The notes below the pieces were generated by a model. That model was given only the letters and a program-made list of their open reading frames with translations, had not been told where the DNA came from and did no database searches. The translations under genes and the position numbers were made by a program. Shown here piece by piece: positions 20,818-29,195 of a stretch of 64,000 bases of DNA. The DNA is from the human T2T-CHM13v2.0 reference genome, Homo sapiens, in the NCBI RefSeq assembly GCF_009914755.1, contig NC_060937.1. One strand, written 5' to 3'. The first letter of the stretch is position 1. Each line of letters begins with the position of its first letter.

Positions 20818-22047
20818 TATTCATCCCAGTTTCTCATCTTGCTCTCAAGATACTTCTCTCTGATGGTAAGTAAATCTGCATTTCTCATAACATACTAAAG
20901 GTTGAAATTAATCTTACTAGACATCCCCTCACTTAATTCCCCTCACTTTAAATCTGTTCCACATCCTAACTTTAACAATTGCACTGAGTTCCATCCAGTC
21001 ACCTAACTCAGAGATCTAGAACTTTTCCCTTTCCCTCAGGCCCCCAAACTTGGGTTCACTATTTCAATAGATACACAAACTCCAATTCCTGCCTCAACAG
21101 TTACCTTGTTGCTCTACAGTACCTGATGCTTTTAGTGTGCTCCTTTTACAAGACAATCCATTCATGGCCTTCTACTAATCCTCTGAGTTTTTCCCTGTGG
21201 CCTTGTGGATGAAGAACAGATACCCTTGGAAGGTAGATAAGACCTTAGATGATCTAAGCTTCACTAACTCTCCAGTTATCTACTGCTAATTCCATTTTTT
21301 GTTGTATCCTTTTGACAAAGGCCATATAATTTATGTAATCCTGGCCTTTCGTTTTTGTTCATAGTTTTCAATTCATCTTCAGTGTTGCTCCAAAAAACCA
21401 AAAATTCTTATAAAAAGCTAATAAAAGTATATATATTTATTTTTCTTATCCTCCCATAAATGCTAAGGCTGTTAATTACCTCCTTTTTTTCTGTGTCTTG
21501 TATTCATCTCTAGGAAAGATTGTTCAGATGAAATATGTGTGTTTTAATAACCCAAATTAAAGGGCAAAGATCTGTATTAAAGTTGCTTTGAGTTTGATTT
21601 CTATTTATATTATTTTCTTCTACAATATATACTTAGACTTTTATAATTATCTATTTTGTGAAGAGTCTTCATGTTATATTTGTAAATGCTGAAAAATATT
21701 GTCATGAGGATATTCATCTTTCCCTGTGTTATGTGTCAAAATTGTGTAATTAGCATTTTATATCATGTATTGCCATTATCCGTTGGTGAGTACCTATATC
21801 ATTCTAAGTTAAAAATTTCCAAATACCTGTTTCATGCAACAACTTACAAGCATTTTCCATATTCAAATATGCTTGGGAAATGCTGAGGTAAAAGTTGATA
21901 GATGTTTTTACTGTAGGGAATCTTTGAGCCATTATATGCTGCCATGCATTGTAAATTTTCCAGAGCAAGATATACAATAATACAATGTTTCACAAACTTA
22001 TTTGACCAAAGTATTTTTTTGTTGTTGTTGTTTTAAGGAGCGGAGAG

Positions 22048-22053
22048 TTTAAT
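22048..22053 (-). terminator. ATTAAA polyadenylation signal of the ERV LTR
   Basis: tttaat on +, about 18 nt upstream of the point where LTR sequence gives way to the A-rich tail. Confidence 0.75.
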
Positions 22054-22287
22054 AGGCAAGAAGCAAGGGAGAAGACAGAAGGAAGAAGCTTCCCCATACA
22101 GAGAAAGAGGGAGGAGGGCTCCAAAGCTGAGAGAGGAGGTACCCGCCTGCCAAGGATACCAGCCAGGTATATATGCCGAGGCTGGAGGAGGCAGTGTTTG
22201 ATTTGCATAGGGCTCAGGGGATTGGTTTGACTAGCCATGTCATTCATGTAGCCTGAGAAAAAGCTGGCCCTCCCACCCTAGCCTTTT

Positions 22288-22579
22288 TTTTTTTTGAGAT
22301 GGAGTTTCTCTCTGTTTGCCCAGGCTGGAGTGCAGTGATGCCATCTCAGCTCACTGCAACATCCACCTCCCAGGTTTAAGTGATTCTCCAGCCTCAGCCT
22401 CCAGAGTAGCTGGGATTACAGGTGCCCACCACCACGCCCGGCTAATTTTTGTATTTTTTAGTAGAGGCAGGGTTTTGCCATGTTGGCCAGCCTGGTCTTG
22501 AACTCCTGACCTCAGGTGATCCACCCACCTAGGCCTCCCAAAGTGCTGGGATTACAGGCATGAGGCACTGCACCCGGCC
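22288..22579 (-). mobile_element. AluS inserted in ERV U3
   Basis: Full Alu; TSD caccctagcctttt. Confidence 0.95.
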
Positions 22580-23186
22580 CACCCTAGCCTTTTAATATGC
22601 AAATGCAGGGCCCATGGGTGTTCTACACACATGGGGATATGTGGGGGTGGCCATGTTGCCAGGAACATGTGGGGAAACGCCAAGAAGGCTGTAGGAATCA
22701 CCATGTTGGGTGGATCCAGGTTCTAATGGCTAGCATTTGCAAATCAAAGGTTGCCAGCCTGGGTCTAAGAGCCGGGGCTTTAGAAGAAACTTTTCTGGAG
22801 ATGCTTTAAAAAATGAAAACTTCCCAATACCCCTTTTCCTCTCCATCTGCCTAAAATAATTTCTTAGTAACTCCTATAACATTCCCCCCTGTGGAGATGC
22901 CACACTAACTGCTGTTAGGGGATTTTGGGTGATGACTCTTTCTGGCTACTTTCTGCTGAAAAGGGGTGTGGAATGGGGAACAGCACCTAGGGTTCCTCCT
23001 GGGGATGATCTAAGGGTCTTGGAAGAATGGCACGTCCATGTGTGGTTCAATTTACAGCACCGTTTGGAGTTTGATTGCTTCTAGGTGAGAAGAGACAGTT
23101 TGAGTTATAGTATTGAGTGTACAGATTCCAAATGTTAATACAAGACATATAAGCAAGAAAGAGGCTAATAAAGGGGCTAACCAGTT

Positions 23187-23365
23187 TTATAAAGAAAACT
23201 GGAATTCATTAAAGAGGGATTGTAGCCACCTGGGGCTGAAGCTGGCATTTTCCCTGAGCCTGCCAATAATTTTGATTTGATCTTTAAGTACCTGTAGATT
23301 TTCCTTTACTATACCAGAGGTGTTAATCCAAAAGCAGCATGTTTCATTTAAAAGTGCATCACTAG
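23187..23365 (-). pseudogene. env: ERV env transmembrane-subunit remnant
   Basis: ALLNETCCFWINTSGIVKENLQVLKDQIKII matches the (C)X6CC-FWIN-SG region of gamma-type TM; lies just upstream of the PPT. Confidence 0.85.
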
Positions 23366-24670
23366 ACCCAATAAAAAGTCTTAGCAGACTCAGTGATAGT
23401 AAAACTTTCAAGCTTCCTTTTTGTTAGTAACTATTATCCCTGCTATAAGGATAATAATTAAACAAAATATGACAGTGATAGAAACTTTCTGTTCAATATT
23501 TCAGTTAGAAGGTGCTACTGTGTATAATCCTATTGCAAATAGTAGAGTGAGGACAGCAGTTCCCACATATACGTTGTGACAGGTAATTTCCACATATGTG
23601 GTGTCATAGGTAATTTCCATCTAACATTTTACTTGGCAAGATATAGAAGTCTCCTTTGAAGGTCTATAAAGTTCCTTGGTTTTATTTTCCCAAACAAAGA
23701 AACCTCTGGGTTATGGGCACCTTATTCACTTTCATTACCTGGCAGAATTTGCAAGATAATTGCCCAGAACTAGCATACTGATTCACATTTGTACGTTACC
23801 CATCCTTTTTTTTTTTTTCTCCGAGCTGCAGAAGATCACCACTCGACTCACAGGAAATAGCAGGGTTAATCTAAAATGTAGTCAAAAAGCTTAAAAACAG
23901 TTAACAAGACAAGGATTTAATGACAAATGTATGATAAGCTTTGGAGCAAAATTTTTCTCTCCAGTCCTCATTTTTGGCAAAAACTAATTATGAATAAATG
24001 TTAGTCTTATACTTGGGCTGATTATTTGCATAAAGTGCAGCAAGAATGTTTATTTTTACATAGGCCTTTTGGATTGGCTTTGATAAAACTCTGTTCCATA
24101 AGGAATTTCAGACAAGACTTTTAAAGCTGAGCCCAGCCATGGGTTTGTATCCTCCAATACCTGTGAGTTGGGTAATCCTCTCCTCTTGAGGTCCCAAGAT
24201 AAACTCAGAGCTTCCAGACCTGTTAGAAAGTGACATTCTTTACTGACCACAGGTTAGGAACCCTGTGGGGGGACAATGTAGACAAGGTATGAAGCCAGTT
24301 CTCCCCAAGGGGCTTATATTGGCTCCGCAGGTGAAGCTTGATTCCTTAAAGGAAAACACACCCTTTCGGTCAAAGCCTTGGTAAAATAACCAGTTTTTCC
24401 AATTGTGTTCTGTTGACAAAGAAAAATGGATTCTTATTGCACTGATGCTAACAACTATATTGCCATAAGTTAAGAGTACTCACAGATAGTCTCCAAATTT
24501 TAGAGGAACCAGGCAGAGAAAAATGAATATGCTCCAAATTTTGTTCACGGTAGTATACCTTACTTAATTATTAAAGACCATAAATCATTTAAAATAAGTT
24601 TCCCTGACTCTGAAAAACAAAACAAGAATCAGCAATATTCCAAGCACAACTTAAAAAGGTTGCTTAAACT

Positions 24671-27894: not shown

Positions 27895-28002
27895 CTGCAA
27901 AAGAAAATAAGCCACTTTTTCTTCAAAGTTTCAAGGTTGAAGGAGTCCCAGTGCTTCAAAATACACTCCACGGGAGTGCATGTTGAAGATTATGTTACCC
28001 AT
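27895..28002 (-). pseudogene. gag: ERV gag N-terminal (matrix) remnant, frameshifted and truncated
   Basis: ATG GGT AAC (MGN), then after a frameshift SSTCTPVECILKHWDSFNLETLKKKWLIFFC, resembling HERV-W/ERV9-type matrix (PLxCILxxWDxFxxxTLxKKxLIFFC). Confidence 0.85.
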
Positions 28003-28914
28003 ATAGAAAGAGAAGTGAGAATGAAAGCATCCTTTTGGTCTCCTTCCTTTTGGTATGTGATCCAGGATGGAGATGAAAACATAGAGGGCGTCCCCCCAAC
28101 TATTTCCTCTCCATCGCTCCTGTAGTCCCAGCACCTGCTTAAATGTGCCACCCATGACTGCAGGTGTGACCCTCCAAGCCATTGCACCAGAGGAACTGAC
28201 TTTTAGGCCTTTGTCGCACTGTCCCCAAGCAATCAGTCCTCTGCCTTTTCTTTCCCTTTGACCTCCTAGATTTGTGTGGCCCGTGTGCCTTCCAAAAAAT
28301 GGATTTCAAAAAAACACTACGTAATTGGGCAAGGCCTCTTTAAGGGAGGGGGTGTGCTAGATTGAACTCTATATCCTGCTATTATAGCCCATGCTAAAGC
28401 ATTTACCCATAGAAGAATGGTTCCAGTTAATTTCCGGACTTAAAATCCCCTTACGAATTAAGTACTGTCTTAATAGGAGACAGAATAGATGCCTTAAAAG
28501 AACATAGGAATCGAATGACCATTTTCCTGCTGGTGAGACAATATTGAGACTAAAATTGAGCTATGGAAGACCTCTTACTCCTAACTGCTAAAGGCAGATA
28601 CTTCCCAGAAGAGGCCTAGAGCCCAATTTCTACTAGGTGGCTTAGAAATACAATGTGCTTGGCAGAGAAAACAGACAGAGAGAGAGATTTATTGAGTTAC
28701 TGTCTGCCGTGATTCATGATCTTTTCTAACAGACCTGTTTCCCTGAACTGTAAAGATCCCTCTACATTAGATACACACAGAGAGGGTAAGAGACCGCGGA
28801 TAAAAAGGGAGAGAAAGTTTGGCAACAGGGTAGCTGGAAGAGAGCCTTGAGATTAAAGGACAGATTTAAAGTTGAAATCCACTCCATACTCACTAGAGGA
28901 TGATTCAATTTCCT

Positions 28915-28932
28915 TTCCCGTCCAATGCACCA
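28915..28932 (-). promoter_or_regulatory. Primer binding site, tRNA-Gly
   Basis: + strand ttcccgtccaatgcacca matches the tRNA-Gly 3' end ttcccggccaatgcacca at 17/18; lies 3 nt from the U5 terminal CA. Confidence 0.9.
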
Positions 28933-28935
28933 GAA

Positions 28936-29136
28936 TGATACGGTTCTGATGAGTGGAGGAACACCAGGGTTCTTGGTCCTCATGCTGGTTTAGATAAAAC
29001 GACATGGACACACATGGAGTGGTTTTAAGGAGCAGAGAGTTTAACAGGCAAGAAAGAAGGGAGAAGACAGAAGGTAGAAGATCCCCCGTAAAGAGACAGA
29101 GGGAGGGGGGCTCCAAAACTGAAAGAGGAGGTCCCC
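28936..29136 (-). mobile_element. R-U5 part of ERV 5' LTR (U3 absent)
   Basis: 29022-29136 repeats 22030-22144 (R); ends ...GTATCA next to the PBS. Confidence 0.85.
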
Positions 29137-29195
29137 GACCAAGGTATTTTTTAATGGCAAATATTACCTTATATGAAATGAATGCCTGAAAACTA

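What the first reader, a model, noticed from the sequence alone, without database searches (positions are those of the whole stretch)
22004..29152. ERV genomic RNA retrotransposed by L1: processed copy of a tRNA-Gly-primed (LTR25/HERVG25-like) element
Seen in sequence (minus strand): ...ccatt|AAAAAATACCTTGGTC, then R-U5 only (29136-28936), PBS-Gly, gag', env', PPT, U3-R (22881-22030), an A/(AAC)n tail, and AAAAAATACTTTGGTC. The 5' LTR lacks U3 and the 3' LTR lacks U5, which is the shape of the viral RNA, not a provirus. The flanking repeat is 16 bp with one mismatch, at a TT|AAAA site. Established: retroviral integrase gives 4-6 bp TSDs (compare MER11, LTR8 and THE1 in this window), while L1 target-primed reverse transcription gives ~7-20 bp TSDs, poly(A) and TT|AAAA cleavage. 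Such processed copies are well known for HERV-W and thought rare in other families. Inference: this pol-less element also spread using L1 machinery, and the copy is full-length to the cap site. I cannot tell whether this route has already been reported for this family.
Basis: partly seen in the sequence, partly recalled or inferred. Interest (0 to 1): 0.85.

Follow-up and report, generated by a model that had tools for sequence, protein, structure and literature searches.

The report
Retrovirus RNA copies pasted by L1
This stretch is a dead copy of an ancient retrovirus's RNA that was pasted into the genome by the L1 element's machinery rather than by the virus itself, and many relatives of it across the genome were made the same way.

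Summary
On the minus strand (29136 to 22030) the element starts at the first base of R, 30 nt below the TATA box of a complete LTR. It runs R-U5, tRNA-Gly PBS, gag and env remnants, PPT, U3-R, and stops 18 nt after ATTAAA. An (AAC)3A tail follows. A 16-nt duplication with one mismatch flanks it at a TT|AAAA site; no such pair occurred in 100 shuffles.

It is not a one-off. In the same genome, 13 of 30 sampled R-U5 ends start at R with unrelated DNA upstream. Of 26 readable 3' ends, 22 stop at the poly(A) site with A-rich tails. About a third of 100 listed R ends carry a tail instead of U5, which extrapolates to roughly 150 copies. Copies truncated at varied 5' points, five spliced copies (one donor, three acceptors) and six R-only copies occur, with 8-19 nt duplications where they can be read. 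Eleven of 11 evaluable solo LTRs of the family have 4-bp duplications.

So L1 made this copy, and it made many of this family's copies that carry internal sequence. Reviews call HERV-W the sole such group, and my searches found no report for this one. The LTR25/HERVG25 name could not be tested.

The parts
29137..29152 (-). 5' target-site duplication AAAAAATACCTTGGTC, preceded by ..CCATT (a TT|AAAA nick site)
29022..29136 (-). 5' R. It starts GGGGACCTCC at the transcription start, and no U3 lies upstream.
28936..29021 (-). U5, ending ..GTATCA
28915..28932 (-). Primer binding site TGGTGCATTGGACGGGAA; 17 of 18 match the tRNA-Gly 3' end
28887..28895 (-). Splice donor of the family (CTG|GTGAGTA in relatives; here CTA|GTGAGTA, unspliced)
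27623..27802 (-). gag capsid N-terminal remnant, broken by stops
   Evidence: E 0.0014 to 1u7k, 3bp9, 2y4z; no Pfam hit
25893..26214 (+). Later Alu insertion inside the element
   Evidence: (D1, D3), hub repeat mask
24664..24984 (+). Later Alu insertion inside the element
   Evidence: (D1, D3), hub repeat mask
24609..24630 (-). Pyrimidine tract + AG splice acceptor; exon starts at 24609 (element position 4528). Used in the spliced relative L010.
24220..24235 (-). Splice acceptor; exon starts about 24220 (element position 4917). Used in the spliced relative L024.
23094..23357 (-). env transmembrane-subunit remnant (TLV_coat profile positions 476-559 of 560)
23080..23100 (-). Pyrimidine tract + AG splice acceptor; exon starts at 23080 (element position 6057). 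Used in spliced relatives L004, L012, L020.
22882..22890 (-). Polypurine tract AGGGGGGAA
22145..22881 (-). U3 of the 3' LTR (starts TGTTATAGG; TATATA at 22173-22168), split by an Alu at 22261-22612 that has its own GGCTAGGGTG duplication
22030..22144 (-). 3' R with ATTAAA at 22053-22048. It ends ..CTCCTTAAAAC, and no U5 follows.
22020..22029 (-). Decayed poly(A) tail AACAACAACA; it runs into the A-run of the TSD
22004..22019 (-). 3' target-site duplication AAAAAATACTTTGGTC (1 mismatch)

Best explanation
The element at 22030-29136 (minus strand) is a processed retrocopy. An unspliced, capped and polyadenylated genomic RNA of a pol-less, gammaretrovirus-like ERV with a tRNA-Gly PBS was transcribed from a complete provirus elsewhere. 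L1 ORF2p nicked this site at TT|AAAA and reverse-transcribed the RNA from its poly(A) tail up to the cap site. That left R-U5...U3-R, a tail and a 16-nt duplication.

The copy arrived without a 5' promoter. It later took three Alu insertions and many stop codons, and it has no evident function.

The same route produced many copies of this family:
- full-length RNA copies
- 5'-truncated copies
- copies of spliced subgenomic RNAs
- ~110-nt copies of R-only RNAs, which run from the transcription start straight to the poly(A) site

Shown: the anatomy, the recurrence of the end points, the duplications, the splice junctions, and the 4-bp control in solo LTRs. Inferred: that L1 was the enzyme source, the age (about 30 My), and that the source proviruses were highly expressed in the germ line.
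For: (1) Locus anatomy and TSD. The 16-mer with up to 1 mismatch occurs only at the two ends; 0 matches in 100 shuffles.

(2) The start is the transcription start. In complete LTRs the same GGGGACCTCC lies about 30 nt after TATATA. 13 of 30 loci found with R-U5-PBS start there with unrelated DNA upstream, and 17 have U3. In a pattern scan of the R start, 20 of 48 family rows with 0-1 mismatch have non-U3 DNA upstream (4 further rows set aside).

(3) The end is the poly(A) site. Of 30 loci found with env-PPT, 22 end at ..CTCCTTAAAA(C) followed by A-rich or (CA)n tails, 4 continue into U5 and 4 could not be read. Of the 100 listed perfect R-end motifs, 32 are followed by tails and 68 by U5 (hand count).

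(4) Candidate counts rise toward the 3' end of the internal region: 42 for the leader against 236 for env-PPT. Of 12 copies whose homology starts at varied internal points, 6 have 10-17 nt TSDs abutting the truncation and the tail.

(5) Of 12 copies with both ends in hand, 7 have 11-17 nt TSDs abutting both ends.

(6) Splicing. Five copies join the same donor (CAGACTG|GTGAGTA in unspliced copies) to three acceptors, each sitting behind a pyrimidine tract + AG in the focal copy.

(7) Six of 6 R-only copies have 8-19 nt TSDs.

(8) Control. 11 of 11 evaluable complete solo LTRs of the family have 4-bp TSDs and TG..CA ends.

(9) Proviral forms with U5-bearing LTRs on both sides and similar internal sequence exist at C1:206.99M and C23:72.57M, so sources are plausible.
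Against: - The tail at this locus is short and impure: 10 nt of AAC repeats plus the A-run of the TSD.
- My TSD control is weak. In 200 random windows of the same locus compared with the 3' flank, the focal score was reached 7 times, because A-rich windows match the tail. It also does not score adjacency.
- 4 of 12 two-ended copies and 6 of 12 truncated copies gave no clear TSD.
- All samples are the best-scoring matches to the focal copy, itself a processed copy, so the fractions are biased toward its subfamily.
- The figure of about 150 is an extrapolation from 100 listed rows and two pattern counts.
- No orthologous empty site could be examined.
- L1 is inferred from hallmarks and not shown directly.
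Confidence: 0.93

Rival explanations
1. An ordinary provirus, integrated by retroviral integrase, later lost the U3 of its 5' LTR and the U5 of its 3' LTR by two independent deletions.
For: The element is old: about 13% divergence between its two R copies and three Alu insertions. Deletions are therefore plausible in general.
Against: - Both break points fall exactly on the transcription start and the poly(A) site.
- The same two points recur in many unlinked copies.
- The flanks carry a 16-nt duplication, not the 4 bp seen in 11 of 11 evaluable solo LTRs of the family.
- An A-rich tail follows R.
Confidence: 0.02
2. An RNA-derived copy was made without L1 endonuclease. Examples are a retroviral or other reverse-transcriptase cDNA captured at a double-strand break, or endonuclease-independent L1 insertion.
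For: The RNA shape alone does not name the enzyme. A few relatives show non-canonical target sites, for example L081 and L084.
Against: - The focal site is a textbook TT|AAAA with a 16-nt TSD and a tail.
- By eye, most relatives with readable TSDs start the duplication with an A-run preceded by T's.
- Break capture usually gives no TSD. That is established knowledge, recalled here.
Confidence: 0.04
3. The flanking 16-mers and the shared R are chance or a local rearrangement (segmental duplication), not a transposition.
For: The TSD is A-rich at one end, and A-rich matches are common near tails (control).
Against: - 0 of 100 shuffles gave any match to the 16-mer with up to 1 mismatch.
- The two copies abut the element's ends exactly.
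- Dozens of unlinked loci share the same architecture with different TSDs.
Confidence: 0.01

Closest known systems
HERV-W (LTR17/HERV17) processed pseudogenes made by L1 (Pavlicek 2002, cited through Grandi 2016; Grandi & Tramontano 2017)
   Same: The 5' LTR is reduced to R-U5 and the 3' LTR to U3-R. There is a poly(A) tail, a TT/AAAA site and variable long TSDs. Copies are frequently 5'-truncated, and some lack an intron. Proviral and pseudogene forms coexist (passages seen in PMC5016936, and PMC6995185).
   Different: It is a different virus.
- LTR size: about 600-650 bp here, with U3 about 435, R about 115 and U5 about 86 nt. LTR17 is 780 nt with R at positions 256-326.
- PBS: tRNA-Gly here. 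ERV-W is predicted tRNA-Arg.
- The internal part here is pol-less.
- R-only retrocopies are seen here. I did not check whether HERV-W has them.
Ordinary L1-made processed pseudogenes of cellular mRNAs
   Same: Starts at the cap site, poly(A) tail, 7-20 nt TSD, TT|AAAA site, 5' truncation, loss of introns.
   Different: The template is a retroviral genomic or subgenomic RNA. The copy therefore carries R at both ends and a whole promoter (U3) near its 3' end.
LTR25 / HERVG25 (LTR25-int) of Repbase/Dfam
   Same: Kojima 2018 lists HERVG25/LTR25-int with LTR25 (table seen). The 'G' would fit the tRNA-Gly PBS shown here. Polavarapu 2006 lists a chimpanzee HERVG25 element with 'LTRs' of only 220/226 bp and no TSD or TG/CA found (table seen), which would fit a processed copy.

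Membership tests
L1-mediated processed retrocopy | Colinear with the RNA: starts at the transcription start and ends at the poly(A) site | tested here: met
   The start is at GGGGACCTCC, about 30 nt after TATATA of complete LTRs. The end is 18 nt after ATTAAA. Both points recur in unlinked copies.
L1-mediated processed retrocopy | Poly(A) or A-rich tail at the 3' end | tested here: met
   Short decayed tail (AAC)3A at 22029-22020. 22 of 26 readable relatives have A-rich or (CA)n tails.
L1-mediated processed retrocopy | Target-site duplication of about 7-20 nt | tested here: met
   16 nt with 1 mismatch; 0 matches in 100 shuffles. Relatives have 8-19 nt. Solo LTRs of the family have 4 bp.
L1-mediated processed retrocopy | L1 endonuclease site TT|AAAA | tested here: met
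   ..CCATT|AAAAAAT.. at the focal site. By eye, most relatives show T-rich|A-rich sites. No formal enrichment test was run.
L1-mediated processed retrocopy | Family shows 5' truncation and intron loss | tested here: met
   Varied truncation points, with TSDs in 6 of 12. Five spliced copies share one donor and use three acceptors. The focal copy itself is unspliced and full length.
L1-mediated processed retrocopy | Empty orthologous site with one copy of the TSD in an outgroup | not testable with these tools
   No other primate genome is held.
Class I (gammaretrovirus-like) endogenous retrovirus | LTR with TG..CA ends, a PBS 2-3 nt after the LTR, a PPT before the 3' LTR, and 4-bp integrase TSDs | tested here: met
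   TGT..ATCA ends and 4-bp TSDs in 11 of 11 evaluable solo LTRs. PBS after TTC. PPT AGGGGGGAA.
Class I (gammaretrovirus-like) endogenous retrovirus | Gamma-type env TM and gag capsid homology | tested here: met
   TLV_coat E 2.7e-9. The capsid match is weak: phmmer E 0.0014 to MLV-type CA N-terminal domain structures, with no Pfam gag hit.
tRNA-Gly-primed ERV | PBS complementary to the 3' end of tRNA-Gly | tested here: met
   The 15-nt PBS core, when not preceded by G, occurs at 12 genomic places. 3 of 3 fetched are tRNA-Gly genes (GCC, GCC, CCC). The focal PBS matches 17 of 18.
LTR25 / HERVG25 (Repbase, Dfam) | Sequence match to the family consensus | not testable with these tools
No Dfam, Repbase or RepeatMasker was available.
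HERV-W (LTR17/HERV17) | 780-nt LTR17 with R at positions 256-326; PBS predicted tRNA-Arg | tested here: not met
   Here the LTR is about 600-650 nt, R about 115 nt, U5 about 86 nt, and the PBS is Gly. The HERV-W values come from passages in PMC5016936 and PMC6995185. No sequence comparison with LTR17 was possible.

The most novel reading that the evidence does not exclude
A second human ERV group, Gly-primed and LTR25-like, owes most of its copies that carry internal sequence to L1 and not to its own integrase. The number is of the order of 150 R-bounded copies.

Its retrocopies preserve a fossil transcriptome of an extinct retrovirus:
- the exact cap site
- poly(A)-site heterogeneity
- one splice donor and three acceptors
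- abundant R-only RNAs from solo or 5' LTRs

This would overturn the textbook statement that HERV-W is the only HERV group mobilised by L1. It would also show that short LTR-initiated RNAs are L1 substrates.
Probability: 0.45. Interest if true: 0.72.

Novelty: new member of a known kind. Interest (0 to 1): 0.6.

Why it matters
[quoted passage not shown] A second group with many such copies changes that picture. It also gives a comparison for asking what makes an ERV RNA a good L1 template.
- Practical consequences follow. These copies lack a 5' promoter. LTR-LTR divergence dating does not apply to them. Pipelines that treat them as proviruses, or their R-U5 and U3-R pieces as solo LTRs, will miscount.
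- The retrocopies also record the transcription start, the splice sites and the poly(A) sites of an extinct virus without any RNA data.

Tried and rejected
Stop-to-stop pieces and X read-through then gave only env TM.
- One gag scan used the wrong frame. The right frame gave no Pfam hit.
- The sigma-70 and terminator scan is irrelevant to a human locus.
The 3' ends of C6:22.25M, C1:225.68M and C3:100.89M were therefore not read in full. C6 and C1:206.99M were partly resolved from pattern rows.
- A 4-bp TSD for the provirus at C23:72.566-72.572M could not be read, because its 5' LTR edge abuts an Alu tail. Solo LTRs served as the control instead.
- L007's internal junction is a microhomology deletion, not a splice. 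The q753-to-q5570 junction of the C20 copy has no donor-like sequence and was left unexplained.
- Literature: seven full-text searches found no paper that links LTR25/HERVG25 or any Gly-primed HERV with L1 processed copies. Pavlicek 2002 (PMC155283) is not held, so I could not see whether it screened other families. Repbase and Dfam entry notes and supplements were not seen.
- HERV-W membership was considered and rejected on LTR layout and PBS.
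Full report
THE LOCUS. I read window 21900-29300 on the minus strand. The element begins at 29136 with GGGGACCTCC, directly after AAAAAATACCTTGGTC (29152-29137). The bases before that are ..GCCATT. It runs as follows:
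- R (to about 29022)
- U5 (to 28936, ending ..GTATCA)
- TTC, then the PBS TGGTGCATTGGACGGGAA (28932-28915)
- about 6 kb of internal sequence carrying two Alus
- the PPT AGGGGGGAA (22890-22882)
- U3 from TGTTATAGG (22881), split by a third Alu (22261-22612)
- R from 22144 to 22030

The tail AACAACAACA follows, then AAAAAATACTTTGGTC (22019-22004).

The two R copies align at 87% over 119 nt (family D4). Nothing U3-like precedes the 5' R, and nothing U5-like follows the 3' R. In the 3' LTR, TATATA (22173-22168) lies about 30 nt before the R start. ATTAAA (22053-22048) lies 18 nt before the R end. With up to one mismatch the 16-mer occurs only at these two places in the window, and no match occurred in 100 shuffles.

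WHAT THE INTERNAL PART ENCODES. I read the three sense frames with X at stops. The only Pfam hit is TLV_coat, the C-terminal part of a gamma-type env TM (E 2.7e-9, about 23094-23357). No protease, RT or integrase family appears at E<=1, so 'pol-less' holds at that sensitivity.

The supposed gag gives no Pfam hit (one search used the wrong frame). It does give a weak phmmer match to solved MLV-type capsid N-terminal domains (E 0.0014; 27623-27802).

The PBS claim was tested. The PBS core, when not preceded by G, occurs at 12 genomic places, and 3 of 3 fetched are tRNA-Gly genes by ARAGORN. The focal PBS matches 17 of 18.

THE SAME SHAPE ELSEWHERE IN THE GENOME. The window's assembly could be searched. 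With R-U5-PBS as query there were 560 candidates, 40 were scored and 30 loci returned. 13 of the 30, the focal copy included, start at or within a few bases of GGGGACCTCC with unrelated DNA upstream. 17 have U3; two of these (L015, L025) were recognised only by eye.

With the env-PPT piece as query there were 236 candidates and 30 loci:
- 22 end at ..CTCCTTAAAA(C/CC/CCAC) followed by A-rich, (AAAC)n or (CA)n tails
- 4 continue into U5
- 4 could not be read because the LTR runs off the locus

The leader query found only 42 candidates. So candidate counts within the internal region rise toward the 3' end, as expected for 5'-truncating reverse transcription primed at the tail.

These samples are the best matches to a processed copy and are biased toward its subfamily. 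I therefore also scanned by motif:
- R-end motif, up to 2 mismatches, with 15 following bases shown: 500 matches against 39 for the reversed control. All 100 listed rows have 0 mismatches. By my hand count, 32 are followed by a tail and 68 by U5.
- Same core followed by the U5 start: 249 matches, control 0.
- Together these suggest roughly 150 tail-type ends. This is an extrapolation, not a count.
- R-start motif with 14 preceding bases: 83 matches, control 36. Among the 0-mismatch rows, 12 of 27 have non-U3 DNA upstream. Among the 1-mismatch rows, 8 have non-U3 DNA, 13 have U3, and 4 near-identical rows (one on C1, three on C22) were set aside as probably unrelated.

DUPLICATIONS AND A CONTROL. 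Of 12 copies with both ends in hand, 7 have 11-17 nt duplications abutting both ends. These are the focal copy, C23:72.69M, C5:141.98M, C9:14.84M, C17:16.44M, C15:82.53M and C12:67.69M. Four are ambiguous, and one has an Alu in its tail.

Of 12 copies whose homology starts at varied internal points, 6 have 10-17 nt duplications abutting the truncation point and the tail. The other 6 show none and may be interrupted rather than truncated.

My random-window control is weak, because A-rich windows match tails; the focal score was reached 7 times in 200. The argument therefore rests on adjacency and recurrence.

The family's own integrase gives a clean contrast. Of 15 complete LTRs, 11 are evaluable solo LTRs, and all 11 have 4-bp duplications (9 perfect, 2 with one mismatch). 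Their ends are TGT...ATCA. Of the 12 LTRs whose edges could be projected, 11 are 598-653 bp long and one is 896 bp.

SPLICED AND R-ONLY COPIES. Short copies share a junction just after the PBS. Unspliced copies read CAGACTG|GTGAGTA there. Five copies stop the first exon at CAGACTG and continue at one of three points: focal element position 6057 (L004, L012, L020), 4528 (L010) or 4917 (L024). In the focal copy each point sits directly behind a pyrimidine tract and AG. These are retrocopies of spliced RNAs. L007's junction is a microhomology deletion instead.

Six loci hold only R, about 110 nt from the transcription start to the poly(A) site, plus a tail. All six have 8-19 nt duplications. They are best read as retrocopies of short RNAs that start in an LTR and are polyadenylated at the first R end. 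They fix both R borders independently.

SOURCES AND AGE. Proviral forms with related internal sequence exist. One is C1:206.987-206.995M, which has U3 at the 5' LTR and both R ends followed by U5. The other is C23:72.566-72.572M. Other U3-bearing 5' LTRs with a leader are more diverged.

Mean pairwise K2P distance among the 22 processed 3' parts is 0.13. With a star-like origin and an assumed 2.2e-9 substitutions per site per year (recalled), that is about 30 My. This is an inference only.

MECHANISM. The best explanation is L1 target-primed reverse transcription of ERV RNAs. At this locus the template was an unspliced genomic-length RNA copied up to the cap site. The copy arrived without a 5' promoter and has decayed since. 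I see no sign of function, and the RefSeq table supplied by the hub lists no gene here.

Rivals fail on the recurrence of the two RNA end points and on the 16-nt against 4-bp contrast. These rivals are two deletions in a provirus, capture of cDNA without L1 endonuclease, and chance.

COMPARISON AND NOVELTY. The architecture is that of HERV-W processed pseudogenes (passages in PMC5016936). The virus is different, however: another LTR layout, a Gly PBS and a pol-less body.

[quoted passage not shown] ERV-W-like elements of New World monkeys lack such copies (PMC6995185 passages). Vargiu 2016 did not separate processed pseudogenes from proviruses (PMC4724089 passages).

Seven full-text searches found nothing that links LTR25/HERVG25 or a Gly-primed HERV with L1. 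Pavlicek 2002 is not held, and database notes and supplements were not seen, so priority is open. A chimpanzee 'HERVG25' element is listed with 220/226-bp 'LTRs' and no TSD or TG/CA (PMC1779541 table). That would fit a processed copy read as a provirus, but I did not check it.

The LTR25 name itself is untested. I rate the finding a new member of a known kind. It is solid at the locus and of moderate-to-good interest at the family level.

Noticed in passing
L091-L096 (G000 C2:58.90M, C10:15.91M, C18:13.83M, C19:39.52M, C23:153.52M, C14:50.43M): Retrocopies holding only the ~110-nt R region plus a tail, each with an 8-19 nt duplication. They look like L1 copies of short LTR-initiated RNAs polyadenylated at the first R end.
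   Followed up: yes
L004, L012, L020, L010, L024; focal window 28893, 24609, 24220, 23080: Five retrocopies of spliced RNAs share one donor and use three acceptors. They map the splice sites of the extinct virus.
   Followed up: yes
and rows: The poly(A) site is heterogeneous: the tail starts after AAAAC, AAAACC or AAAACCAC. Several tails have become (CA)n or (AAAC)n microsatellites, for example L073, L077, L083, C2:58.90M and C10:15.91M.
   Followed up: partly
L022/L038 (C7:7.34M) and L024 (C12:67.69M): These copies begin 6-14 nt upstream of the usual R start, inside ..GGCAGGT. That suggests alternative transcription start sites.
   Followed up: no
window 22261-22612: The Alu inside U3 has its own duplication GGCTAGGGTG(GG) and an A-tail. 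It is a second L1-type insertion signature inside the element.
   Followed up: partly
G000 C1:116644028 and C22:18989505, 19185223, 21655726: Four near-identical matches to the R-start motif are preceded by AATTTCACAATC. The three on C22 look like segmental-duplication copies. Their relation to the family is unknown, and they were set aside from the counts.
   Followed up: no
L076/L032 (C20:49.26M): This copy joins element position 753 to 5570 without a donor-like sequence, and it has an Alu inserted in its tail. The origin of the internal deletion is unexplained.
   Followed up: no
PMC1779541, table row CERV 29 (HERVG25): The chimpanzee 'full-length' HERVG25 element is listed with 220/226-bp LTRs and with PBS, TSD and TG/CA not determined. 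It may be a processed copy taken for a provirus.
   Followed up: no
L100/L075 (C23:72.566-72.572M): This is a provirus-like copy with U5 after both R ends. The first ~8 nt of its 5' LTR are replaced by, or abut, an Alu poly(A) tail, so its integrase duplication could not be read.
   Followed up: partly
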